DNA from: a virus
Taxonomy: Duplodnaviria; Heunggongvirae; Uroviricota; Caudoviricetes
Strand: one strand, 5' to 3'
Virus record (IMG/VR): IMGVR_UViG_2541047928_000009
Location: 1-37,215 of that record
DNA: 37,215 nucleotides
How positions within the stretch are numbered: position 1 is the first letter of the stretch; the number at the start of each line of letters is the position of its first letter. Below are positions 4,192 to 37,215 of the stretch, one piece after another. Made by a program: the position numbers and the translations under genes. Under the pieces are notes generated by a model. That model did not search any database. It was given only the letters and a program-made list of their open reading frames with translations, and was not told the origin of the DNA.

Positions 4192-5044
4192 TCTTGCAAC
4201 CGTAACACATTTAAGGCCTTCACAACGGCCTGTGGAGCGTCGTGTGGCAGAAGTTGAAGATGGTTATACCCGTCTTGCAAATGCCCTGTATGAAGAGCTT
4301 ATCGGCGCAGATTTAACAAAAAATCAGAGTAAGGTTGCCCACGCCATATGCCGTAAAACATACGGATACGGTAAAAAGATGGATCGCATCTCTGATAGTC
4401 AGTTAGCTCAAATTACCAGGCTGCCAAGACAGAAGGTAAACAAGGCCAAGAATGAGCTTATCGCGATGAAGGTAATCCTTCGCGAAGGCCAGCAAATCGG
4501 GCCTAACAAGAACATCGAGGAATGGCAAATCGAAGGGTGTCACTACTCTGGTGATAATGTCACTGCATTGGTGACAAAAAGTGTCACCAAAACGGTGACA
4601 GCGCTGTCACCAAAACAGGGACACACAAAAGAAACTATTACAAAAGAAAAAAGAAATAATAAAAACACTATGTCCGAAAGTGTTCGGACGGAGTGTGAAA
4701 AATCATCTGACCGTCACGAAGAAACCGACAAGGCATTCGAGGAAATATTCTGGTGTGCAGGCATGCGGAAAGCCGGGAAAAAAAACGCAGCTTCGGCATT
4801 CAGAACACAGTTCAGGGAATGGCGTAAAACTACCAGGGGTACGGCAAGCGAGTTTGCCACGATGCTGGCAGAAGACATCGCATGCAGGAATGGTAAGCAG
4901 TTCGGATTCGACAGGTTGTTACCATCGAGCTACCTGAACGGTCAGCGCTGGAACGACGAGAAGCCAGAAACTATTCAACCACAATCCAAACCATCATCCG
5001 CAATCACCGTATCGAAAACTGGCTACGTGTTTTTCGACAGGTGA
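4184..5044 (+). CDS. O: Replication initiation protein O (lambda O-like N-terminal iteron-binding domain)
   Basis: N-terminal region [14 protein letters not shown]...[33 protein letters not shown] resembles lambda O; ori iterons lie inside the gene. Confidence 0.8.
4536..4670. repeat. Origin of replication: three or four inverted-repeat iterons (GGTGACA...TGTCACC type) followed by an AT-rich segment, embedded in the O gene
   Basis: Directly visible: TGTCAC at 4538, GGTGATAATGTCAC at about 4550, GGTGACAAAAAGTGTCACC at about 4570-4588, GGTGACAGCGCTGTCACC at about 4594-4611, then an AT-rich stretch 4625-4670; same architecture as lambda ori. Confidence 0.7.
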
Positions 5045-5151
5045 ACCATGAAATCAAAAATCAAATCGCTACTGGTCGCTGGTTATAACCACGGCTGGTT
5101 AAGTATTTCGTTTGTCGATTTCTGGTTTAAAAATCTCAATCTGAGGGAATC

Positions 5152-7032
5152 ATGAGGCCAAGTGAACTTAGCGACCTGCTTTGGGCGCAGGTTGACAGTG
5201 TGGCTCCGCACCTGTTGCCAAATGGCAAGAAAGAGGGGCATGAGTGGGTTGCCGGTAACATCAACGGTGACAAGGGAAACAGCCTTAAGGTCAACCTTAG
5301 CGGCAAGAAAAAATGGGCTGATTTCGCTGAGGGAGACGGCGGTGACATGCTTGATTTGTGGATGGCATGTCGTGGAATTAACCTGCATCAGGCTATGCAG
5401 GAAGCGAAAGCATTTCTCGGTATCAAGGATGACGATCACCATTTCGATGCCAGACGTGAGAAGAAATTCTCCAGACCTGATCGCAAGAAAATCGCCCGCT
5501 ACGTTACCAGAACAGAATCCCATCTTGAGTACCTGCAATCGCGTGGCATATCGCCAGAAATCGTAAAGCGCTACGAGGTTGTCAGCGGCAAGGTGTGGAA
5601 TGGAGAGCGGGAACTGGATGCTCTGGTGATTCCGTACAAACGCGATGGTGAGTTGTTGCAGGTCAAGCGAATCAGCACTGAGCGCCCGGACGGGAAGAAA
5701 GTCATTATGGCAGAAGGTGATTGCGAACCTTGCCTGTTCGGATGGCAGGCTCTGGACGCTGGCGTGAGGGCGGTTGTGCTTTGCGAAGGCGAAATTGATT
5801 GTATGAGCTATGCGCAATACGGCATCTCGGCGTTATCCGTGCCGTTTGGTGGCGGGAAAGGCGCTAAGCAACAGTGGATTGAGTTTGAGTATCACAACCT
5901 CGACAGGTTTGAGGAAATATTCATCTCGATGGACGTTGATGATGTTGGTCGTGAAGCCGCAAGGGAAATCGCAAGCCGACTCGGTGAACATCGTTGCCGT
6001 CTTGTTACTCTGCCGTACAAAGACATCAACGAATGCCTGATGAACGGTGTTACCGAGGATGAAATCTGGCAGTACATCGGCACGGCATCCTACTTCGATC
6101 CTGAAGAACTCTACAGCGCGCGAGAGTTTTACCAGGACACTATCAACGCTTTCTACGGCAAGCAGCAGTATCTGTTTAATCCACCGTGGGAATCTCTGGC
6201 AGATAAATTCCAGTTCCGTGAGGCAGAGTTGACGCTGGTCAATGGGGTGAACGGTCACGGAAAAACGGAGGTTGTCGGGCATATGGCACTTGAGGCAATG
6301 CGTCAGGGTGTGAAGACGTGCATCGCGTCACTTGAGCTGAAGCCTGGTATTCTCCTTAAGCGCCTTACCCGTCAGGCGACGTGCTGCAAGATGCCGCCAG
6401 TGCTGGAAATTGACTCTGCATTTAAATTTTATGACGAAAGACTTTGGGTGTTTGGCCTGACCGGAACGGCGAAAGCCGACAGGCTGATCGAAATATTCGA
6501 CTACGCTCGCCGCCGATACGGGATCCAGTTATTCATCATCGACAGCCTGATGAAATGTGGCATAGGCGACGATGACTATAACGGGCAGAAGGCGTTTGTT
6601 GACTCGATTTGCGACTTCAAAAACAAAACAAACTCCCACGTCATTCTCGTTACTCACTCGCGAAAAGGAGACAGCGAAGAAAAACCAACCGGGAAAATGG
6701 ACGTAAAAGGCTCTGGAGCGATAACAGACCTGACAGACAACCTTTTCATCATCTGGCGTAACAAGGCTCGCGAGAGAGCGTTACAGAGAGTTCAGAGTGG
6801 TGAAAAGATGTCAGAGAAGGACGAACAGCTACTGGCGTCTCCTGCATCTGTTTTGATGCTTGAAAAACAACGTAACGGCGAAGGTTGGGAAGGTGGTGTC
6901 CCGTTGTTCCTTGACGAGCAATCGCACCAGTTCCTGCAACTTGAATCAGGATCGCCATATAGCTACATCGCCAATATGCCGAAATCGGAATATGACGAGG
7001 CGTGGCGACAGGAAAACGTGACGGAGTATTAA
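5152..7032 (+). CDS. Bifunctional DNA primase/helicase (Toprim primase domain plus RecA-fold DnaB/RepA-like ATPase)
   Basis: Toprim motifs VLCEGEIDCMS and ISMDVDDVG; Walker A GVNGHGKT and Walker B LFIIDSL; occupies the position of lambda P. Confidence 0.75.
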   Translation: MRPSELSDLLWAQVDSVAPHLLPNGKKEGHEWVAGNINGDKGNSLKVNLSGKKKWADFAEGDGGDMLDLWMACRGINLHQAMQEAKAFLGIKDDDHHFDARREKKFSRPDRKKIARYVTRTESHLEYLQSRGISPEIVKRYEVVSGKVWNGERELDALVIPYKRDGELLQVKRISTERPDGKKVIMAEGDCEPCLFGWQALDAGVRAVVLCEGEIDCMSYAQYGISALSVPFGGGKGAKQQWIEFEYHNLDRFEEIFISMDVDDVGREAAREIASRLGEHRCRLVTLPYKDINECLMNGVTEDEIWQYIGTASYFDPEELYSAREFYQDTINAFYGKQQYLFNPPWESLADKFQFREAELTLVNGVNGHGKTEVVGHMALEAMRQGVKTCIASLELKPGILLKRLTRQATCCKMPPVLEIDSAFKFYDERLWVFGLTGTAKADRLIEIFDYARRRYGIQLFIIDSLMKCGIGDDDYNGQKAFVDSICDFKNKTNSHVILVTHSRKGDSEEKPTGKMDVKGSGAITDLTDNLFIIWRNKARERALQRVQSGEKMSEKDEQLLASPASVLMLEKQRNGEGWEGGVPLFLDEQSHQFLQLESGSPYSYIANMPKSEYDEAWRQENVTEY

Positions 7033-23117: not shown

Positions 23118-23861
23118 ATGACCACACCAAATCCACTGGCAAAGACGAAAGGTGCGGGGACGACGTTCTGGATGTATACCGGCAACGGCGACGCATTTGC
23201 GAACCCTTTGTCGGACACTGACTGGCTGCGTCTTGCGATGGTGAAGGATCTGCAACCTGGCGAAATGACCGCTGATGCAGAAGATGATACTTATCTCGAT
23301 GATGAAGATGCAGACTGGAAAACGACAACCCAGGGGCAGAAATCAGTCGGTGATACTTCGGCGACGCTGGCCTGGCGTCCGGGTGACAGCGGGCAGAAAA
23401 AACTGGTTCAGTTGTTCGACTCCGGTGAAGTCTGCGCGTTTCGTATCAAATATCCCAACGGTACTGTTGATGTTTTCCGTGGCTGGCTGAGTTCACTGGG
23501 TAAAACCATTGCCTCAAAAGACGTGATGACCCGCACTGTGAAAATCAGCGGTGTGGGGCGTCCGTATCTGGCAGAGGAAGGCACTGAAACAGTGAGCGTT
23601 ACCGGGCTGACGGTGGCACCGGCATCTGCCAGTGTAAAAGTGGGAGCAACCACCACGCTGACCTTTACAGTAAAACCTGACGGAGCCAGTGACAAAGCGA
23701 TCAGTGTGCATTCGTCAGATCCACAGACTGCCACGGTGACCCTGAACGGGCTTGTAGCCACGGTGAAAGGCGTGAAGCAGGGCAGTGTCAGCATTGTGGG
23801 CATGACCGCTGACGGGAATTTTGTGGCTGTGGCTGCGGTGACTGTCAGCGCCGCAGGTTAA
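23118..23861 (+). CDS. V: Major tail protein V with C-terminal Ig-like domain
   Basis: MTTPNPLAKTKGAGTTFWMYTGNGDAFANPLSDTDWLRLAMVKDLQPGEMTA... closely matches lambda gpV. Confidence 0.9.
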   Translation: MTTPNPLAKTKGAGTTFWMYTGNGDAFANPLSDTDWLRLAMVKDLQPGEMTADAEDDTYLDDEDADWKTTTQGQKSVGDTSATLAWRPGDSGQKKLVQLFDSGEVCAFRIKYPNGTVDVFRGWLSSLGKTIASKDVMTRTVKISGVGRPYLAEEGTETVSVTGLTVAPASASVKVGATTTLTFTVKPDGASDKAISVHSSDPQTATVTLNGLVATVKGVKQGSVSIVGMTADGNFVAVAAVTVSAAG

Positions 23862-30065: not shown

Positions 30066-33000
30066 ATGGGTAAAGGAAGCAGTAAGGGGCATACCCCGCG
30101 CGAAGCGAAGGACAACCTGAAGTCCACGCAGTTGCTGAGTGTGATCGATGCCATCAGCGAAGGGCCGGTTGAAGGTCCGGTGGATGGATTAAAAAGCGTG
30201 CTGCTGAACAGTACGCCGGTGCTGGACACTGAGGGGAATACCAACATCTCCGGTGTCACGGTGGTGTTCCGTGCCGGTGAGCAGGAGCAGACACCGCCGG
30301 AGGGGTTTGAATCCTCCGGCTCCGAGACGGTGCTGGGTACGGAAGTGAAATATGACACGCCGATCACCCGCACCATTACGTCTGCAAACATCGACCGTCT
30401 GCGCTTTACCTTCGGTGTACAGGCACTGGTGGAAACCACCTCAAAGGGTGACAGGAATCCGTCGGAAGTCCGTCTGCTGGTTCAGATACAACGTAACGGT
30501 GGCTGGGTGACGGAAAAAGACATCACCATTAAGGGCAAAACCACCTCGCAGTATCTGGCCTCGGTGGTGGTGGGGAGCCTGCCGCCGCGCCCGTTTAATA
30601 TCCGGATGCGCAGGATGACGCCGGACAGCACCACAGACCAGCTGCAGAACAAAACGCTCTGGTCGTCATACACCGAAATCATCGATGTGAAACAGTGCTA
30701 CCCGAACACGGCACTGGTCGGCGTTCAGGTGGACTCGGAGCAGTTCGGCAGTCAGCAGGTGAGCCGTAATTATCATCTTCGCGGGCGTATTCTGCAGGTG
30801 CCGTCGAATTATAACCCGCAGACGCGGCAATACAGCGGTATCTGGGACGGAACGTTTAAGCCAGCATACAGCAACAACATGGCCTGGTGTCTGTGGGATA
30901 TGCTGACCCATCCGCGCTACGGCATGGGGAAACGTCTTGGTGCGGCGGATGTGGATAAATGGGCGCTGTATGTCATCGGCCAGTACTGCGACCAGTCGGT
31001 GCCGGATGGCTTTGGTGGCACGGAGCCGCGCATCACCTGTAATGCGTACATGACCACGCAGCGCAAGGCGTGGGATGTTCTCAGTGATTTCTGCTCGGCG
31101 ATGCGCTGTATGCCGGTATGGAACGGGCAGACGCTGACGTTCGTGCAGGACCGACCGTCGGATAAGGTGTGGACCTATAACCGCAGTAATGTGGTGATGC
31201 CGGATGATGGCGCGCCGTTCCGCTACAGCTTCAGCGCCCTGAAGGACCGCCATAATGCCGTTGAGGTGAACTGGATTGACCCGGATAACGGCTGGGAGAC
31301 GGCGACAGAGCTTGTGGAGGACACGCAGGCCATTGCCCGTTACGGTCGTAACGTCACGAAGATGGATGCCTTTGGCTGTACCAGCCGGGGGCAGGCACAC
31401 CGCGCCGGGCTGTGGCTGATTAAAACGGAACTGCTGGAAACGCAGACCGTGGATTTCAGCGTGGGTGCTGAAGGGCTTCGCCATGTACCGGGCGATGTCA
31501 TTGAAATCTGTGATGATGACTATGCCGGTATCAGCATCGGCGGGCGCGTGCTGGCGGTGAACAGCCAGACGCGGACACTGACGCTCGACCGTGAAATCAC
31601 GCTGCCATCCTCCGGCACCACGCTGATAAGCCTGGTTGACGGACAGGGGAATCCGGTCAGCGTGGAGGTCCAGTCCGTCACCGACGGCGTGAAGGTGAAA
31701 GTGAGCCGGGTTCCTGACGGCGTTGCCGAGTACAGCGTGTGGGGGCTGAAGCTGCCGACGCTGCGCCAGCGCCTGTTCCGCTGTGTGAGTATCCGGGAGA
31801 ACGATGACGGTGCGTATGCCATCACCGCCGTGCAGCATGTACCGGAAAAAGAGGCCATCGTGGATAACGGAGCGCACTTTGACGGCGACCAGAGCGGCAC
31901 GGTGAATGGTGTCACGCCGCCAGCGGTGCAGCACCTGACCGCCGAAGTCACCGCAGACAGCGGGGAATATCAGGTGCTGGCGCGCTGGGACACGCCGAAG
32001 GTGGTGAAGGGCGTGAGCTTCCTGCTCCGTCTGACCGTAACAGCGGATGACGGCAGTGAGCGGCTGGTCAGCACGGCCCGGACGGCGGAAACCACTTACC
32101 GCTTCAGGCAGCTGGCGCTGGGGCGTTACACGCTGACGGTCCGGGCGGTAAATGCCCGGGGACAGCAGGGCGATCCGGCGTCGGTATCGTTCCGGATTGC
32201 CGCACCGGCAGCGCCGTCGCGGATTGAGCTGACGCCGGGGTATTTTCAGATAACGGCGGTCCCGCGTCTTGCGGTGTATGACCCGACGGTACAGTTTGAA
32301 TTCTGGTTCTCAGAAAAACGCATCACGAACACAGCACAGGTGGAAAAATCTGCCCGTTATCTGGGGACCGGCAGTCAGTGGACTGTCCAGGGGAGCCGGA
32401 TTAAGCCGGGGACGGATTTCTGGTTTTACGTGCGAAGCGTCAACCTGGTGGGAAAATCTGCTTTTGTGGAAGCCAGCGGGCAGCCCAGCAATGATGGTGA
32501 AGGGTATCTGGAAATTTTCCGGGGGCTGATAGATGAGACGCTTCTGGGCCAGGCACTGAAAGAGCGCATTGATGCTTCAGCGCTGCGTACGGAGGTCACG
32601 CAACTGGAAGAAGATATCCGTCAGCGGATGGACACGGATATCGCAGAAGTGACCCGGAAAATCGGGAAGGCGGAAAACAGCCTCACGCAGCTGGTTGCGA
32701 AAAAGAATGAGGACCAGACACTGGCCATCGCGCAGGTGAGCCAGAAAGTGGACCGGGTGAGCAGTGAAATCTCACAGACTGTCAGCCAGGGGCAGTCAGA
32801 AAACGCCCGACAGATAGCACAGGTCCGCCAGTACGTGGATAAAAAAGGGAGTGAAATTACCTCGACCACGGATAAAAAGCTGGGTGACCAGGCCGTGACC
32901 ATACAGCAAATCCAGCGGGTTCAGTCAGACACGCGCAATGAGCTGAATGCCATGTATATGCTGAAGGTGCAGAAAACAAAAAACGGTATTCCCTATGTGG

Positions 33001-33764
33001 CCGGGATTGGCGCGGGGATTGAGGATGTTGATGGTCAGACCCTGAGTAACATTCTGCTGCAGGCCGATCGCATTGCGATGATTACCCCGGAGAACGGCAA
33101 CACCACGCCGCTGTTTGTGGCGCAGGGGAATCAGCTGTTCATGAACGACGTGTTCCTGAAGCGACTGTTTGCGGTGAGCATCACGTCATCCGGCAATCCT
33201 CCGACGTTTTCCCTGACGCCGGATGGCAGGCTGACAGCCCGCAATGCGGATATCAGTGGAGCCATCACGGCGAATACCGGCACGCTCAATAATGTCACCA
33301 TTAACGAGAACTGTGTCATCAGAGGGAAACTGTCTGCAAACCAGATTGAAGGCGATCTCGTTAAAACAGTGGGTAAGGCTTTCCCCCGTGACTCCCGTGC
33401 ACCGAAGCGTTGGCCATCAGGAACCATTACCGTCAGGGTTTATGACGATCAGCCGTTTAACCGGCAGATTGTTATTCCGGCGGTGGCTTTCAGCGGTGCC
33501 AGACATGAGCGGGAGAACAGCGATACTTATTCGTCATGCCGCCTGATAGTGAAGAAAAACGGTGCTGAAATTTATAACCGTACCGCGATGGATAATACGC
33601 TGGTTTACAGTGGTGTTATTGATATGCCTGCTGGTCGCGGCGACATGACGCTGGAGTTTTCTGTATCAGCATGGTGGGTAAATGGCTGGTATCCCACAGC
33701 AAGTATCAGCGATTTGCTGGTTGTTGTGATGAAGAAAGCCACTGCAGGCATCACGATTAGCTGA
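30066..33764 (+). CDS. J: Tail tip / host specificity protein J (central fibre), lambda-like N-terminal two-thirds with a divergent C-terminal region
   Basis: N-terminal about 800 aa closely match lambda J as recalled; 1232 aa versus about 1132 aa in lambda; the C-terminal third includes a coiled-coil-like insertion and a receptor-binding end that differs from lambda. Confidence 0.9.
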
Positions 33765-33831: not shown

Positions 33832-34431
33832 ATGCGTAAATTATGTGCAGCCATTTTGTCCGCAGCCATCTGTCTGTCCGTATCCGGTGCGCCTGCATGG
33901 GCGTCTGAACATCAGTCCACACTGAGCGCGGGGTATCTTCATGCCCGTACGAACGCTCCCGGCAGCGATAATCTGAACGGGATTAACGTGAAATACCGTT
34001 ATGAATTTACGGACACGCTGGGGCTGATTACGTCCTTCAGTTATGCCGACGCAGAAGATGAACAAAAAACGCATTACAGCGATACCCGCTGGCATGAAGA
34101 TTCCGTGCGTAACCGCTGGTTCAGCGTAATGGCGGGGCCGTCTGTGCGCGTGAATGAATGGTTCAGCGCGTATGCGATGGCGGGTGTGGCTTACAGCCGT
34201 GTGTCGACTTTCTCCGGGGATTATCTCCGCGTAACTGACAACAAGGGGAAAACGCACGACGTGCTGACCGGAAGTGATGACGGTCGCCACAGCAATACCT
34301 CTCTGGCGTGGGGGGCTGGCGTGCAGTTTAACCCGACCGAATCCGTGGCCATTGACCTTGCTTATGAAGGCTCCGGCAGTGGCGACTGGCGAACGGATGC
34401 ATTTATTGTTGGTATCGGATACCGTTTCTGA
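33832..34431 (+). CDS. lom: Lom-like outer membrane protein (Ail/Lom/PagC family beta-barrel), a lysogenic-conversion moron
   Basis: Signal peptide MRKLCAAILSAAICLSVSGAPAWA; C-terminal AYEGSGSGDWRTDAFIVGIGYRF matches lambda Lom ...AYEGSGSGDWRTDGFIVGVGYKF; flanked by terminators. Confidence 0.85.
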   Translation: MRKLCAAILSAAICLSVSGAPAWASEHQSTLSAGYLHARTNAPGSDNLNGINVKYRYEFTDTLGLITSFSYADAEDEQKTHYSDTRWHEDSVRNRWFSVMAGPSVRVNEWFSAYAMAGVAYSRVSTFSGDYLRVTDNKGKTHDVLTGSDDGRHSNTSLAWGAGVQFNPTESVAIDLAYEGSGSGDWRTDAFIVGIGYRF

Positions 34432-34536
34432 CAACAGACGCCGATTTATCTTCTGTAAATATTGTTATGATACGCAGGTTCATCCGCCTTATGGAGTGAA
34501 CTGCGTTTGAGGAAACGTAAAGTTACACTGTCCTGA

Positions 34537-34568
34537 AGCCCGTGGCGTCACTGCTGCGGGCTTTTTTT
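34537..34568 (+). terminator. Rho-independent terminator after lom
   Basis: AAGCCCG...CGGGCTT stem followed by TTTTTTTATT. Confidence 0.55.
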
Positions 34569-34582
34569 ATTGGTGGAAAAGT

Positions 34583-36643
34583 ATGACAGTAAAAATTTCT
34601 GGCGTGCTTAAAGATGGCACAGGAAAACCAGTACAGAACTGCACCATTGTGCTGAAGGCCAGACGGACCAGCAGCACGGTGGTGGTGAACACGGTGGCCT
34701 CTGAAAATCCGGATGAAGCCGGGCGTTACAGCATGGATGTTGAGCATGGTCAGTACAGCGTCACCCTGCTGGTTGAAGGTTTTCCACCTTCACATGCCGG
34801 GACCATTACCGTCTATGAAGGTTCCAGACCAGGTACGCTGAATGATTTTCTCGGTGCCATGACGGAGGATGATGCCCGTCCGGAGGCACTGCGCCGTTTT
34901 GAGCTGATGGTGAATGAAGTGGCACGTCATGCCGGAGCGTCATCACAGAGTGCAGCGGCGGCAAAGAAATCCGAAACGGCAGCAGCCTCATCGAAGAATG
35001 CGGCGAAAACCTCAGAAACGAATGCAGCTAACAGCGCACAGGCGGCAGCGGCCTCGCAGACTGCATCGGCAAACTCCGCGACAGCAGCCAAAAAATCAGA
35101 AACCAGCGCGAAAAATAGCGAGACAGCCACAAAGGCCAGCGAAAAAAACGCAAAATCCAGCCAGACGGCAGCGAAAACCAGTGAGACGAATGCCAAAGAC
35201 AGTGAAGCCAACGCAAAGGTGAGCGAAACAGCGGCGGCGAACTCGGCGAAAGCATCGGCAGCAAGCCAGACGGCAGCAAAAGCAAGTGAAGATGCTGCCA
35301 GAGAATACGCAAACCAGACAGCAGAGCCGTACAGATATGTTTTACAGCCGCTGCCGGATGTGTGGATACCCTTTAATGATTCGCTGGATATGATTACGGG
35401 CTATTCTCCGGGTTATAAAAAAGTGAAGATTGGTGATAATGTGGTTCAGGTTGCCAGTGATAAACAGGTTAATTTCAGTCGCGCATCAACGGCAACATAT
35501 ATCAACAAATCTGGCGAACTGAAAACGGCGGAAATTAATGAGCCACGATTTGAAAAAGAAGGTTTATTGATTGAAGGTCAGCGAACCAACTACATGTTGA
35601 ATTCAGCAACTCCAGCTTCTTGGGGTAAATCTGCAAATATGAATGTCGCTGAGGTTGGAACTGATAGTTTTGGTTTTACTTATGGAAAGTTTGTTTGTAA
35701 TGAATCATTAATTGGGCAAAGTACAACCCTTAATATGGCAGTAGTTTCAACCTCGGGGGCTGTCGATGTATCAGGCGATAATAAGTGTGTGACGACATCG
35801 TGCAGATTTAAAACGGATTTGGAACTCCTGTTAAGGATCAGGTTTGAAGCCTTCGATGGCAGCGCTTCATCTAATCTTGGATATGCCATTGTTAATACGC
35901 GGTCTTTATTGGTTGAAATCACCGGTGTAGCTGCCGACAGGCTCACCGCACGAGTTAACAAAGATGAAGCTACGGGCTGGATTTTTGTAGAGGCAACGAT
36001 TCAAGCAAGTAAAGAAACTTACATAACCTCTGCAATACAATACGCACCAAAATCTGGTGGCGTCGTTGAATCTGGTGACTATATTTATCTGGCCACTCCT
36101 CAGGTTGAGGATGGTTCGTGTGTATCATCTTTTATTATATCAGGAACGACGGCGGCGACGCGCGCAAGCGATATGGTTACAGTTCCGATTAAGAATAATC
36201 TTTATAATCTTCCTTTTACGGTTCTTTGTGAGGTACATAAGAACTGGTATAAAACGCCAAATGCAGCGCCACGTGTTTTTGATACCGGCGGTCATCAAAC
36301 CGGAGCGGCTATTATTCTTGGCTTCGGATCTTCGGCAGATGGGCCAGACGGATTTCCTTATTGCGATATTGGTGGATCAAATAGGCGTGTTAACGAAAAC
36401 GCATCGTTGAAAAAAATGGTTATGGGGATGCGTGTAAAGTCAGATCAGTCTACATGTGCAGTAAGTAACGGGCGTATATCCAGCGAAACAAAAACCACAT
36501 GGGAATATATCCGGAGTACAGCAACCATTCGCATTGGTGGACAAACTACAGCAGGATTACGCCATTTATTTGGGCATGTGAGGAATTTTCGTCTCTGGCA
36601 TAAAGAGCTAACAGATGCGCAGCTTGGGGAGGTTGTGGAGTGA
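34583..36643 (+). CDS. stf: Side tail fibre protein (Stf-like N-terminus, Ala/Ser/Thr-rich repeat region, non-lambda C-terminal distal domain)
   Basis: N-terminus MTVKISGVLKDGTGKPVQNCTIVLKARR...GFPPSHAGTITVYEGSRPGTLNDFLGAMTEDDARPEALRRFELMVNEVAR closely matches lambda Stf; the C-terminal about 430 aa are unrelated to lambda Stf as recalled and look AT-richer. Confidence 0.85.
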   Translation: MTVKISGVLKDGTGKPVQNCTIVLKARRTSSTVVVNTVASENPDEAGRYSMDVEHGQYSVTLLVEGFPPSHAGTITVYEGSRPGTLNDFLGAMTEDDARPEALRRFELMVNEVARHAGASSQSAAAAKKSETAAASSKNAAKTSETNAANSAQAAAASQTASANSATAAKKSETSAKNSETATKASEKNAKSSQTAAKTSETNAKDSEANAKVSETAAANSAKASAASQTAAKASEDAAREYANQTAEPYRYVLQPLPDVWIPFNDSLDMITGYSPGYKKVKIGDNVVQVASDKQVNFSRASTATYINKSGELKTAEINEPRFEKEGLLIEGQRTNYMLNSATPASWGKSANMNVAEVGTDSFGFTYGKFVCNESLIGQSTTLNMAVVSTSGAVDVSGDNKCVTTSCRFKTDLELLLRIRFEAFDGSASSNLGYAIVNTRSLLVEITGVAADRLTARVNKDEATGWIFVEATIQASKETYITSAIQYAPKSGGVVESGDYIYLATPQVEDGSCVSSFIISGTTAATRASDMVTVPIKNNLYNLPFTVLCEVHKNWYKTPNAAPRVFDTGGHQTGAAIILGFGSSADGPDGFPYCDIGGSNRRVNENASLKKMVMGMRVKSDQSTCAVSNGRISSETKTTWEYIRSTATIRIGGQTTAGLRHLFGHVRNFRLWHKELTDAQLGEVVE
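34943..35302 (+). repeat. Tandem in-frame repeats (about 14-aa / 42-bp period, AAK-SET-like) inside the tail fibre gene
   Basis: Roughly eight degenerate repeats of the type AAKKSETAAASSKN / AAKTSETNAANSAQ; generates spurious Arg-rich and Ala-rich ORFs in other frames (34914..35222 +, 34927..35211 -). Confidence 0.7.
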
Positions 36644-36918
36644 GAGATTTCACGTTGCGTTTCAGTGATAAAGCAGATTTCAGGGCATTTCTCAGGAAAC
36701 TTAACTGGGAAGAGGACGAAGAGCTGCAGAATGCCATTCTGGTTGATGAGATTGGTTTTACGTTCAGTGAGTCAGGTGTTTCTGCTGACGGGGAGCCTGA
36801 ATACACGCGAGACGAAGGGTACTTTGTTAATATTCGTCTTCTTGACGATGGATTTGATGATTCCGTGTTCCGTGAGTGGGTGGTTACACCAGAGCGCCCG
36901 CTCAGGGAGTGGTTTTAA
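36640..36918 (+). CDS. Hypothetical acidic protein (92 aa) immediately downstream of the tail fibre; possibly a fibre accessory/chaperone, but not a recognisable Tfa
   Basis: GTG start overlapping the stf stop, preceded by GGGGAGG; acidic; no family recognised. Confidence 0.4.
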   Translation: MRDFTLRFSDKADFRAFLRKLNWEEDEELQNAILVDEIGFTFSESGVSADGEPEYTRDEGYFVNIRLLDDGFDDSVFREWVVTPERPLREWF

Positions 36919-36927
36919 GGATAGCAG

Positions 36928-37215
36928 ATGGATATCACGTCGATACTTCATGCGCTTTGTGCCGTAGCGGTGCAGGTACTGGCTGGTCTTTTTACCGGAA
37001 ACTGGGCTTACGGGGCGATAGCCGGTTGTACGTTCTTCATTGCGCGTGAACACACCCAGGCAGAATATCGCTGGATTGAAATGTTCGTGCATGGCAAGCG
37101 TATGAATATGCCGTGGTGGGGCGGTTTTGATCCACGCGTGTGGGATGTGGGAAGTTTGTTGGATTTTTCTTTCCCAATTATCGGATGCTTATTGGTATGG
37201 ATTCTTGCATCGTAG
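36928..37215 (+). CDS. Hypothetical small membrane protein (95 aa, two predicted hydrophobic segments)
   Basis: ATG with an AAGGA RBS; hydrophobic stretches LHALCAVAVQVLAGLFTGNWAYGAIAGCTFFIA and LLDFSFPIIGCLLVWILAS; stop is the last codon of the window. Confidence 0.45.
   Translation: MDITSILHALCAVAVQVLAGLFTGNWAYGAIAGCTFFIAREHTQAEYRWIEMFVHGKRMNMPWWGGFDPRVWDVGSLLDFSFPIIGCLLVWILAS

What the first reader, a model, noticed from the sequence alone, without database searches (positions are those of the whole stretch)
34583..37215. Mosaic side tail fibre (lambda-like N-terminus, repeat linker, foreign AT-richer distal domain) followed by two small unknown ORFs instead of a canonical Tfa
Seen in sequence: stf begins like lambda Stf, then has about eight Ala/Ser/Thr/Lys-rich 14-aa repeats (34943-35302), then about 430 aa that I cannot relate to lambda Stf and that look lower in GC. 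Downstream are a 92 aa acidic ORF with a GTG start overlapping the stf stop (36640..36918) and a 95 aa two-segment membrane ORF (36928..37215). A lambda-type tail fibre assembly gene (about 190 aa) is not visible inside the window. Inference: a horizontally exchanged receptor-binding module with its own accessory genes; the membrane protein might instead be a superinfection-exclusion or cargo gene.
Basis: partly seen in the sequence, partly recalled or inferred. Interest (0 to 1): 0.5.

Follow-up and report, generated by a model that had tools for sequence, protein, structure and literature searches.

The report
Mosaic side tail fibre, non-Tfa partners
This is a real but common prophage side tail fibre: a lambda-type anchor and coiled-coil shaft carry a horizontally exchanged, probably sugar-binding tip, followed by two conserved uncharacterised small genes instead of the usual Tfa fibre-assembly gene.

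Summary
**Observation:** confirmed.
- Stf (34583-36643, 686 aa) is 86% identical to lambda Stf over residues 1-116 only.
- The ~430-aa distal module has low GC (43.5% vs 53-56%) and includes an NCBIfam GTA_spike_fiber domain.
- There is no Tfa in the window. In a chromosome identical over the compared region, the host gene torT follows about 360 bp downstream.

**Not unique:**
- The cassette occurs in phage 21 and PhiR40_1 (99%), and in some form in about 1,900 of 5,426 complete E. coli genomes.
- The distal module occurs in 221 phage records across lambdoid, T1-like, Dhillonvirus, Queuovirinae, T5-like and rV5-like phages.

**o92:**
- In every locus inspected it lies directly after this module.
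- It is a confident α/β fold unrelated to Tfa, under purifying selection.
- It is probably a dedicated fibre partner (assembly factor or adaptor).

**o95:**
- It belongs to a strongly conserved membrane-protein family. That family is chromosomal in sphingomonads and Aeromonas.
- In phages it repeatedly sits after fibre or tailspike genes.
- The module, an o92-like gene and o95 recur together in Pantoea, Comamonas and Chelativorans.
- Its function is unknown.

**Verdict:** Interest is moderate.

The parts
34535..34564 (+). Terminator-like GC-rich hairpin plus T-run between lom and stf
   Evidence: (L004 5236-5265; L004 coordinate + 29299 = window coordinate): 13-pair stem with 7 GC pairs, followed by TTTTATTGGT. 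Phage 21 has an annotated terminator at the equivalent place after J. No + strand promoter-like site lies downstream of it.
34583..36643 (+). stf, side tail fibre gene (686 aa), mosaic of three parts
   Evidence: ORF. PHROG tail-fibre families. 99.9% identical to Stf of PhiR40_1 and of E. coli EC9682.
34583..34975 (+). Lambda-type N-terminal attachment domain (residues 1-131)
   Evidence: Pfam PF08400 phage_tail_N, E = 8e-68. Residues 1-116 are 86% identical to lambda orf-401.
34934..35311 (+). Heptad-repeat Ala/Ser/Thr/Lys-rich shaft (residues ~118-243, about 17-18 heptads of type xAAKxSE)
   Evidence: Protein autocorrelation z = 7.4-8.6 at lags 7, 14, 21 and 28. AT skew reaches 0.70. No DNA tandem repeat by TRF. 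A trimeric coiled-coil shaft is an inference.
35351..36640 (+). Horizontally exchanged distal module (residues ~257-686), low GC
   Evidence: GC 43.5%, GC3 36%. Homologous modules occur in 221 phage records on unrelated shafts. PHROG 1419.
35567..36166 (+). GTA head-spike-fibre-like domain (residues 329-528)
   Evidence: NCBIfam NF048003 GTA_spike_fiber, 50.3 bits against a cutoff of 36. RcGTA Rcc01080 (PDB 6tb9 chain sequence), E = 5e-6.
36167..36640 (+). C-terminal sub-domain (residues ~529-686), probably a ConA/galectin-like lectin. Residues 571-660 are the swappable, most variable part.
   Evidence: Sliding identity. The IrisVonRoten Gp22 homologue (73-83% identical over residues 511-686) was modelled with a C-terminal galectin-like domain (PMC11990801). 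A Chelativorans homologue has Pfam Laminin_G_3 at the equivalent position. The fold was not predicted here.
36640..36918 (+). o92: 92-aa acidic α/β protein, conserved partner of the distal module (PHROG 1361)
   Evidence: GTGA start/stop overlap. Present in 189 phage records, and directly after the fibre gene in every locus inspected. AlphaFold pLDDT 92. dN/dS 0.13-0.45. Only 55 representatives among 1.84 billion proteins.
36928..37215 (+). o95: 95-aa integral membrane protein of a widely conserved family (PHROG 1443), last gene of the prophage arm
   Evidence: 572 homologues. 21 invariant positions, including the core REHTQAEYRWI (E41-H42 and E46) and MPWWGGFD. AlphaFold pLDDT 87.5, three helices. 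dN/dS 0.20-0.27. Contexts.

Best explanation
**The fibre (steps marked shown or inferred)**
- The region encodes the side tail fibre cassette of a lambdoid prophage.
- Shown: a lambda-type N-terminal domain, which in lambda anchors the fibre to the tail.
- Shown: about 18 heptads. Inferred: they form a trimeric coiled-coil shaft.
- Shown: the distal ~430 residues are a horizontally acquired module that circulates among temperate and virulent coliphages. It consists of a GTA-head-spike-fibre-like domain followed by a variable terminal domain.
- Inferred: the terminal domain is ConA/galectin-like. The module acts as a non-enzymatic binder of a surface polysaccharide (O-antigen, LPS or capsule) and mediates reversible first contact.

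**o92**
- The module needs neither a lambda-type Tfa nor an S74 intramolecular chaperone.
- Instead it is always co-inherited with o92, whose start overlaps the fibre's stop.
- o92 is most likely (inferred) a dedicated fibre partner. It could be an assembly or capping factor for the distal module. In phages that also encode a second RBP, it could be part of the junction to which that RBP docks.

**o95**
- o95 is a small integral membrane protein of cellular origin that phages repeatedly place at the 3' end of RBP cassettes with glycan-type domains.
- It appears to be co-expressed late with the RBP.
- It most likely acts on the envelope (inferred, weakly). Examples are interfering with display of surface glycan receptors or with entry of competing phages. 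It is unlikely to fold the fibre.
For: **Anchor, shaft and module boundaries:**

**Distal domain family**
- NCBIfam and PDB-sequence hits.
- RcGTA head fibres bind capsular polysaccharide (PMC7296036).
- The IrisVonRoten Gp22 homologue was modelled with a galectin-like end.
- Laminin_G_3 lies in the equivalent position of a Chelativorans homologue.

**No Tfa and no S74 domain:**

**o92 linkage across phage groups:**
- Confident fold with no Tfa-like match.
- Profile against lambda Tfa, E = 1.7.
- Purifying selection.
- Start/stop overlap and a Shine-Dalgarno sequence.
- No internal promoter-like site.

**o95**
- Invariant polar and aromatic core.
- Follows a P22-type tailspike, P2/HP1-type fibres, a pectate-lyase spike, S74 fibres and a Tail_spike_N spike, often with start/stop overlap.
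- The trio of module, o92-like gene and o95 recurs in Pantoea, three Comamonas species and Chelativorans.
Against: **General**
- No experiment or complex prediction links o92 or o95 to the fibre. Linkage could reflect co-transfer rather than function.
- No structure of the distal module was predicted here. The solved RcGTA entry resolves only residues 2-10 of Rcc01080, so the lectin-like fold and glycan binding rest on a homologue model and on HMM hits.

**o92**
- Its identity does not track the variable terminal sub-domain: 64% to phage 21 but 44% to VogelGryff. It therefore does not co-evolve with the presumed receptor-binding part.

**o95**
- It is a stand-alone chromosomal gene next to pirin, ligA and DAHP synthase in Aeromonas and sphingomonads. 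Its core activity is therefore not fibre-specific.
- Its topology is unresolved: the conserved loop has 5.5 K+R, which argues for a cytoplasmic location, while many C-termini are basic.
- No fold or family match was found.
Confidence: 0.6

Rival explanations
1. o92 is a structural connector, a 'knee' or adaptor of a branched fibre, rather than an assembly factor. It sits on the end of the primary fibre and provides the docking site for a second, separately encoded RBP. In this prophage the second RBP has been lost, or is supplied in trans.
For: - In IrisVonRoten, Lindwurm (both T5-like), VogelGryff (Seuratvirus), HannyBb (lambdoid), E. ruysiae and Escherichia sp. E1V33 the order is primary fibre, then o92, then a second fibre.
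- Second fibres examined in four phages (IrisVonRoten, Lindwurm, VogelGryff, HannyBb) share an N-terminal [ST]-[IV]-P-x-D-I-x-x-L-K motif; HannyBb's fibre body shows no BLAST similarity to the other two it was compared with.
- Humolli et al. model IrisVonRoten Gp24 as attached to proximal fibre Gp22.
- RefSeq labels the IrisVonRoten o92 homologue 'tail fiber protein'.
Against: - The window, phage 21 and PhiR40_1 have no second fibre gene, and no docking-motif ORF in any of the six frames of the 37-kb window. Even so, o92 is intact and under purifying selection.
Confidence: 0.3
2. Both small ORFs are cargo (morons) unrelated to the fibre. o92 would be an acidic anti-defence or DNA-mimic-like protein. 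o95 would be a prophage-expressed superinfection-exclusion or conversion protein, sitting at the usual moron site between the late operon and att.
For: - o92 has pI 4.2.
- The pair lies at the prophage end next to att and torT or the integrase. In phage 21 cargo genes (sitABCD) follow directly.
- In P22-like JEP4, o95 occupies the site between tailspike and integrase. From general knowledge, P22-like phages carry O-antigen conversion genes there.
- o95 has chromosomal homologues.
Against: - o92 is embedded inside fibre operons of strictly virulent phages (T5-like, rV5-like, Seuratvirus, T1-like), which have no lysogenic state.
- Starts overlap the upstream gene's stop, and there is no promoter-like site.
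- In P2/HP1-like prophages o95 lies in the middle of the tail operon.
- PADLOC gives no hits for either protein.
Confidence: 0.12
3. o95 is a holin-like or lysis-timing membrane protein.
For: It is a small protein with 2-3 transmembrane helices that appears to be expressed late. One of 51 family members gave a weak Phage_holin_8 hit, E = 0.042.
Against: - No consistent holin family match in 51 members.
- In every locus read it lies in or next to tail/RBP genes or housekeeping genes, not in an annotated lysis cassette.
- It has housekeeping-context chromosomal homologues.
- The invariant polar motif looks like a specific binding or catalytic site, not a pore former.
Confidence: 0.04

Closest known systems
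Phage lambda Stf/Tfa (Ur-lambda side tail fibre with its assembly protein)
   Same: Same genomic slot (J, lom, stf). The N-terminal attachment domain is 86% identical over 116 aa, with Pfam PF08400. A Lom homologue lies upstream.
   Different: Beyond residue 116 there is no similarity to lambda Stf (orf-401/orf-314). No Tfa is present in the window or beyond it. The downstream genes are unrelated to Tfa.
Phage 21 cassette CPT_21_22/23/24 (side tail fiber, hypothetical protein, putative membrane protein) and PhiR40_1
   Same: Identical three-gene architecture. Identities to phage 21 are 64% (Stf), 64% (o92) and 81% (o95). PhiR40_1 is 99% identical in DNA.
   Different: Residues 571-660 of Stf are a different allele from phage 21 (20-33% identity). 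The last 48 nt of o95 diverge from PhiR40_1.
IrisVonRoten (Bas32, T5-like) Gp22-Gp23-Gp24 lateral fibre (Humolli et al. 2025, PMC11990801)
   Same: Gp22's distal ~430 aa are 56-63% identical to this module, and Gp23 is an o92 homologue at 46%. Gp22 was modelled as a fibre ending in a galectin-like domain.
   Different: Gp22 has a T5-type N-terminus and carries a separate T-shaped RBP, Gp24. The window has no second RBP and has o95 instead.
RcGTA head spike fibre Rcc01080 (GhsB), NCBIfam NF048003
   Same: Residues 329-528 match the family domain above its cutoff. The family is implicated in binding capsular polysaccharide.
   Different: Rcc01080 is a single 325-aa subunit attached to capsid pentons by an N-terminal Leu-Gly repeat. 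Here the domain sits at the end of a tail fibre. Identity is low.
T5-like DT57C LtfA/LtfB branched fibres and S74 intramolecular-chaperone fibres
   Same: The concept is shared: lateral fibres with exchangeable distal parts and, in relatives of this cassette, a second RBP attached to the first.
   Different: LtfA and LtfB carry autocleaving Peptidase_S74 chaperone domains and, as far as the text searched shows, have no small ORF between them. This Stf has no S74 domain and is followed by o92.

Membership tests
Lambda-type side tail fibre (Stf) | N-terminal prophage tail-fibre attachment domain (Pfam PF08400) | tested here: met
   E = 8e-68 over residues 1-131. 86% identity to lambda orf-401 over residues 1-116.
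Lambda-type side tail fibre (Stf) | Lambda-like distal part (orf-314 region, related to T4 gp37) | tested here: not met
   tblastn of lambda orf-314 against the window gives nothing within stf; the best hit anywhere is E = 0.056 at 23409-23540.
Tfa-type tail fibre assembly chaperone (lambda Tfa) | A homologous ~190-aa gene directly downstream of the fibre gene | tested here: not met
   - No lambda Tfa similarity in the window or in 6 kb beyond it.
- torT follows in the chromosome that is 100% identical over window 35300-37215.
- o92 and o95 have no Pfam, NCBIfam or PADLOC family.
- o92 profile against lambda Tfa, E = 1.7.
Intramolecular-chaperone fibres (Peptidase_S74) | C-terminal PF13884 domain | tested here: not met
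   No PF13884 hit in Stf at E <= 0.1. The same scan detects it in second fibres of related loci.
GTA head spike fibre domain proteins (NCBIfam NF048003) | HMM score above the curated cutoff | tested here: met
   50.3 bits against a cutoff of 36, residues 329-528, profile positions 1-181 of 182. Rcc01080, E = 5e-6.
GTA head spike fibre domain proteins (NCBIfam NF048003) | Binding of capsular or surface polysaccharide | not testable with these tools
   Known only for RcGTA head spikes (PMC7296036).
ConA-like / galectin-like lectin domain (C-terminal ~150 aa of Stf) | β-sandwich lectin fold | not tested
   - No Pfam Laminin_G hit in Stf itself.
- Support is indirect: the IrisVonRoten Gp22 model in PMC11990801, and Laminin_G_3 at the equivalent position of a Chelativorans homologue.
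o92 family (PHROG 1361) | Profile match, and position directly after a fibre gene that carries the distal module | tested here: met
   PHROG 1361, E = 3e-39. Position confirmed in 8 phage loci and 4 Escherichia genome loci.
o95 family (PHROG 1443) | Profile match and the invariant motifs REHTQAEYRWI and MPWWGGF | tested here: met
   PHROG 1443, E = 2e-53. Invariant columns in a 51-sequence alignment.
Known superinfection-exclusion or defence proteins (PADLOC-DB) | Homology to a described exclusion or defence protein | tested here: not met
   PADLOC gives no hits for o92 or o95. No PDB or BFVD structural match for o95. The exclusion phenotype itself cannot be tested here.
Holins | Match to a holin family, and location in a lysis cassette | tested here: not met
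   Only 1 of 51 family members has a weak Phage_holin_8 hit, E = 0.042. The gene lies in or beside tail and RBP genes.

The most novel reading that the evidence does not exclude
o92 and o95 together form a previously unrecognised accessory system for lectin-type (GTA-spike-like) tail fibres, conserved from alpha- to gamma-proteobacterial phages.
- o92 would be a new class of fibre partner, neither Tfa nor an intramolecular chaperone. It would cap or assemble the distal module and nucleate branched fibres.
- o95 would be a host-derived membrane protein with an enzyme-like invariant site. Phages would deploy it alongside their glycan-targeting RBPs to act on a conserved envelope step, for example display of polysaccharide receptors or entry of rival phages.
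- That would make o95 an RBP-linked exclusion or receptor-management function that is generic rather than receptor-specific.
Probability: 0.25. Interest if true: 0.65.

Novelty: new variant of a known kind. Interest (0 to 1): 0.4.

Why it matters
- Side and lateral fibres set the first step of host recognition, and they are prime targets for engineering phage host range.
- This distal module is among the most widely shared fibre tips in coliphages: 221 phage records, and some form of the cassette in about a third of complete E. coli genomes. Yet its obligate-looking 92-aa partner has no assigned function and is ignored in published fibre models.
- If o92 is required for assembly, or for docking a second RBP, chimeric fibres built with this module will fail without it.
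- o95 is a strongly conserved membrane-protein family with no annotation. Phages have repeatedly captured it next to fibre and tailspike genes, so finding its target could reveal a general envelope function relevant to exclusion or receptor display.
- The sequence itself is ordinary: it is identical to known E. coli prophages.

Tried and rejected
**Searches that found nothing useful**
- TRF on the DNA found no tandem repeat. The repeat is visible only at the protein level.
- Pfam, NCBIfam and PADLOC gave nothing for o92 or o95.
- Pfam at E <= 10 on 51 o95 family members gave only scattered noise; PhoR, in 9 members with best E = 0.047, was judged spurious.
- o95 model: Foldseek against PDB gave 0 hits. 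BFVD gave only a 42-aa fragment homologue.
- The afdb50 library was unavailable.
- Profile searches of PDB sequences gave nothing for o95. For o92 the only hit was Tetrahymena p19 at E = 0.017, judged to be chance.

**Constraints on structure prediction**
The representatives search was then used to obtain allowed diversity for o92.
- The distal-module homologues listed were all at least 97% identical, too shallow for a prediction. No model of the distal domain was made.

**Literature**
- Nothing on either small protein, even by motif search.
- The Eligo lambda-STF paper and the E. coli HS phage paper concern other fibre tips.
- Brenes & Laub 2025, the source of the PhiR phages, is not held.

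**Ideas rejected or revised**
- Rejected: o95 as a receptor-specific blocker of the Cor or Llp type. It stays 53-62% identical (86% in the E. coli phage JEP4) next to unrelated RBPs.
- Rejected: DT57C LtfA/LtfB as the model for this cassette. Those fibres use S74 chaperones and have no small ORF.
- Revised: my first impression that o95 always follows a large RBP. Only 19 of 57 genome loci have an upstream ORF of 300 aa or more, and several upstream genes are housekeeping genes.


Full report
**1. What is there**

The window's last 7 kb is the end of a lambdoid late operon:
- a J-like gene, 30066-33764, 1232 aa;
- a Lom homologue, 33832-34431, Pfam Ail_Lom E = 7e-127;
- stf, 34583-36643, 686 aa;
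- o92, 36640-36918, whose GTG start overlaps the stf TGA;
- o95, 36928-37215, which ends exactly at the window end.

Both small ORFs have good Shine-Dalgarno sequences. A strong terminator-like hairpin lies between lom and stf. No + strand promoter-like site occurs within stf, o92 or o95. That pattern fits read-through late transcription better than an autonomous moron, although a consensus scan is weak evidence.

**2. Checking the observation**

- **Lambda-like start.** Stf residues 1-116 are 86% identical to lambda orf-401, and nothing beyond that is significantly similar to lambda Stf. Pfam PF08400 covers residues 1-131.
- **Repeats.** The Ala/Ser/Thr/Lys-rich region is periodic, with z = 7.4-8.6 at lags 7, 14, 21 and 28. 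The true unit is therefore a heptad, with about 17-18 copies over residues 118-243. TRF sees nothing at the DNA level.
- **GC.** The distal part has 43.5% GC (GC3 36%), against 53-56% for the fibre's own N-terminus and shaft and 57% for J.
- **No Tfa.** Lambda Tfa and orf-314 have no counterpart in the window. In E. coli EC9682, which is 100% identical over window 35300-37215, the prophage ends after o95 and the host gene torT starts about 360 bp later. In PhiR40_1 (99% identical) a reverse-strand gene and the integrase follow. In phage 21 the sitABCD cargo follows.

**3. How common it is**

The three-gene cassette is not unusual.
- It is in phage 21 (CPT_21_22/23/24), mEp460, ev243, ev207, 2G7b, HannyBb, Tritos and several PhiR phages.
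- DNA similar to window 35300-37215 is found in 1,908 of 5,426 complete E. coli genomes, and 413 of them cover at least 80% of it.
- PGAP labels these genes 'prophage tail fiber N-terminal domain-containing protein' plus two 'hypothetical proteins'.

**4. The distal module**

*Family.* Residues 329-528 score 50.3 bits (cutoff 36) against NCBIfam NF048003, 'GTA_spike_fiber'. They also match the RcGTA head spike fibre Rcc01080, E = 5e-6. In RcGTA that protein is a single flexible subunit implicated in binding the capsule. Only its residues 2-10 are resolved, so the fold of the matching part has not been determined experimentally (PMC7296036).

*Distribution.* The whole ~430-aa module occurs in 221 phage records (203 at >= 80% coverage). 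It sits at the end of lateral or side fibres with unrelated N-termini, in lambdoid, T1-like, Dhillonvirus, Queuovirinae, T5-like and rV5-like phages.

*Exchange.* Window 35345-36605 is 84% identical in DNA to the virulent Seuratvirus VogelGryff. Residue-level identity over 300-660 is 73-100%, while the N-terminus is only 10-37% identical.

*Finer mosaic.* Residues 571-660 are 20-33% identical to phage 21 but 77-93% identical to VogelGryff, HannyBb and IrisVonRoten. This swappable piece is the best candidate for the receptor-contacting part.

*Terminal domain.*
- Humolli et al. (PMC11990801) modelled IrisVonRoten Gp22, which is 56-63% identical over the distal module. They describe it as a proximal fibre that ends in a protruding galectin-like domain and carries a separate T-shaped RBP, Gp24.
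- A Chelativorans homologue of the module (profile E = 2e-17) has a Pfam Laminin_G_3 domain in the position equivalent to the last ~130 residues.
- I did not predict the module's structure. The listed homologues were too similar to one another, and both prediction jobs went to the small proteins.
- 'Lectin-like glycan binder' is therefore inference from homologues.

**5. o92**

- It is acidic (pI 4.2) and matches PHROG 1361, of unknown function.
- tblastn finds it in 189 phage records. In all eight phage loci inspected it starts at or within a few bases of the stop of a fibre gene carrying the distal module. Those loci are PhiR40_1, phage 21, HannyBb, VogelGryff, IrisVonRoten, Lindwurm, EmilHeitz and the IS-disrupted D2. 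The same holds in four Escherichia genome loci.
- An exhaustive search of 1.84 billion representatives finds only 55 relatives, nearly all 85-100 aa.
- AlphaFold with a 27-sequence alignment gives a confident compact α/β domain: pLDDT 92, pTM 0.78, order β-α-α-β-β-β-β-α.
- The family profile does not match lambda Tfa, E = 1.7.
- dN/dS is 0.13-0.45.
- In several phages a second fibre gene follows o92. The four second fibres examined share an N-terminal [ST]-[IV]-P-x-D-I-x-x-L-K motif; HannyBb's fibre body shows no BLAST similarity to the IrisVonRoten and VogelGryff fibres, which do resemble each other. No such motif is encoded anywhere in this window.
- o92 identity does not follow the variable sub-domain.

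My reading is that o92 is a dedicated partner of the conserved part of the distal module. An assembly or capping role is more likely, because o92 is retained where there is no second fibre. The connector role is a serious rival.

**6. o95**

*Family properties.*
- It matches PHROG 1443, of unknown function.
- It has 572 homologues, still 53-62% identical in Comamonas, Aeromonas, Leclercia and Citrobacter.
- A 51-sequence alignment has 21 invariant positions: D2, H8, Q16, G29, the core REHTQAEYRWI, R58, MPWWGGF, W72 and D79.
- AlphaFold gives three helices with pLDDT 87.5.
- Hydropathy shows two strong hydrophobic segments and one weaker one. The charge distribution does not settle the orientation.
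- No fold, family or defence-system match was found.

*Context in phages.* It sits directly after the RBP gene whatever the RBP type, often with its start overlapping the RBP's stop:
- a P22-type tailspike (JEP4, and a metagenome contig);
- P2/HP1-type fibres in Leclercia and Aeromonas salmonicida, in mid-operon;
- a pectate-lyase spike in Citrobacter;
- S74-chaperone fibres and a Tail_spike_N/β-helix spike in other genomes;
- a giant gpJ plus a 72-aa ORF in Comamonas.

*Context in chromosomes.* A scan of species-representative genomes found 70 loci. In Aeromonas and sphingomonads the gene is chromosomal, next to pirin, ligA, DAHP synthase or cytidine deaminase. The family is therefore cellular and has been captured by phages.

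*The recurring trio.* The distal module, an o92-like gene and o95 recur together outside Escherichia.
- Pantoea and two Comamonas species have the same order as the window. A third Comamonas locus (L031) has the module and o95, with a 188-aa ORF between them that did not reach the o92 threshold.
- Chelativorans has the order fibre, o95, then o92-like gene.
- The o92-like hits keep the D-x-I-G and G-[YF]-x-[VI]-N motifs, and two of the four (L029, L041) also keep P-x-R.

*Reading.* This argues against pure coincidence, but co-transfer of a block cannot be excluded. Because o95 stays conserved next to unrelated RBPs, it cannot be a receptor-specific blocker. Nearly all the neighbouring RBPs carry glycan-type domains. 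I therefore favour, with low confidence, an envelope-acting role tied to surface-glycan receptors or to exclusion.

**7. Comparison and verdict**

- The cassette belongs to the lambda Stf family only by its N-terminal domain. It fails the Tfa and S74-chaperone tests and meets the GTA_spike_fiber domain test.
- It is the same cassette as in phage 21 and PhiR40_1, so the sequence is not new.
- As far as I could find, three points are not described in the literature searched:
  - the near-universal o92 partnership;
  - the recurring placement of o95 after RBP genes, together with its cellular origin;
  - the conservation of the trio across proteobacterial classes.
Two descriptive details need correcting: the repeat period, and the number of hydrophobic segments in o95.
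- Interest is moderate. The fibre itself is ordinary, but it has two widespread, uncharacterised and experimentally tractable partners.

Noticed in passing
window 35345-36605: This 1.26-kb stretch of a temperate prophage fibre gene is 84% identical in DNA to the strictly virulent Seuratvirus VogelGryff (Bas25). That points to fairly recent exchange between temperate and virulent phages (hit H13).
   Followed up: partly
window 32550-33000 (J residues ~830-980): Strongly A-rich stretch (AT skew 0.38-0.41) inside the J-like gene. It encodes a Gln/Glu/Lys/Ser-rich, helix-like segment. This J is 1232 aa against about 1132 aa for lambda J (size from the record coordinates).
   Followed up: no
window 34535-34564: Strong terminator-like hairpin (13-pair stem plus T-run) between lom and stf. 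Expression of stf, o92 and o95 would therefore require read-through of this site, presumably by antitermination.
   Followed up: partly
window 37168-37215: The last 48 nt of o95 do not align with PhiR40_1 by megablast, although the rest is 99% identical. They are identical in EC9682 and a few other chromosomes. This may be a recombination breakpoint inside the 3' end of o95, close to the prophage end.
   Followed up: no
window end; L004 7916-8277: The window stops exactly at the o95 stop codon. In E. coli EC9682 the prophage abuts torT about 360 bp downstream, so the attachment site lies next to torT.
   Followed up: partly
window ~950-2700: The lowest-GC part of the window (about 0.40 in 1.3-kb windows) is at the opposite end from the finding. 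It was not examined.
   Followed up: no
phage records MG065692 (Campylobacter phage C13), MG065654, MG065635, OR848352 (Listeria phage LM 4-14-1): Records labelled as Campylobacter or Listeria phages carry this coliphage-type fibre module and o92 at 26-44% amino-acid identity to o92 (73.6% DNA identity for the module in C13). Their sizes resemble those of T5-like, rV5-like or Seuratvirus coliphages. They may be mislabelled or contaminant records.
   Followed up: no
L017 (Escherichia phage D2, OM475427) 4243-6365: An insertion element (three 'mobile element protein' genes) sits between the stf gene and the o92/o95 pair in this lambdoid phage. It separates the fibre from its partners by 2.6 kb.
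   Followed up: no
L022-L024, L026, L006 (Aeromonas); L050, L059, L071, L081, L082 (sphingomonads and other Alphaproteobacteria): o95 homologues are stand-alone chromosomal genes in housekeeping neighbourhoods (pirin, ligA, DAHP synthase, an FAD flavoprotein, cytidine deaminase). This suggests an unannotated cellular membrane-protein family with a strongly conserved polar motif.
   Followed up: partly
L009 5289-, L016 4081-, L003 4556-, L008 3927-: The second fibre proteins encoded after o92 in IrisVonRoten, Lindwurm, VogelGryff and HannyBb share a short N-terminal motif, [ST]-[IV]-P-x-D-I-x-x-L-K; HannyBb's fibre body shows no BLAST similarity to the IrisVonRoten and VogelGryff fibres. It is a candidate docking peptide for branched fibres.
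   Followed up: partly
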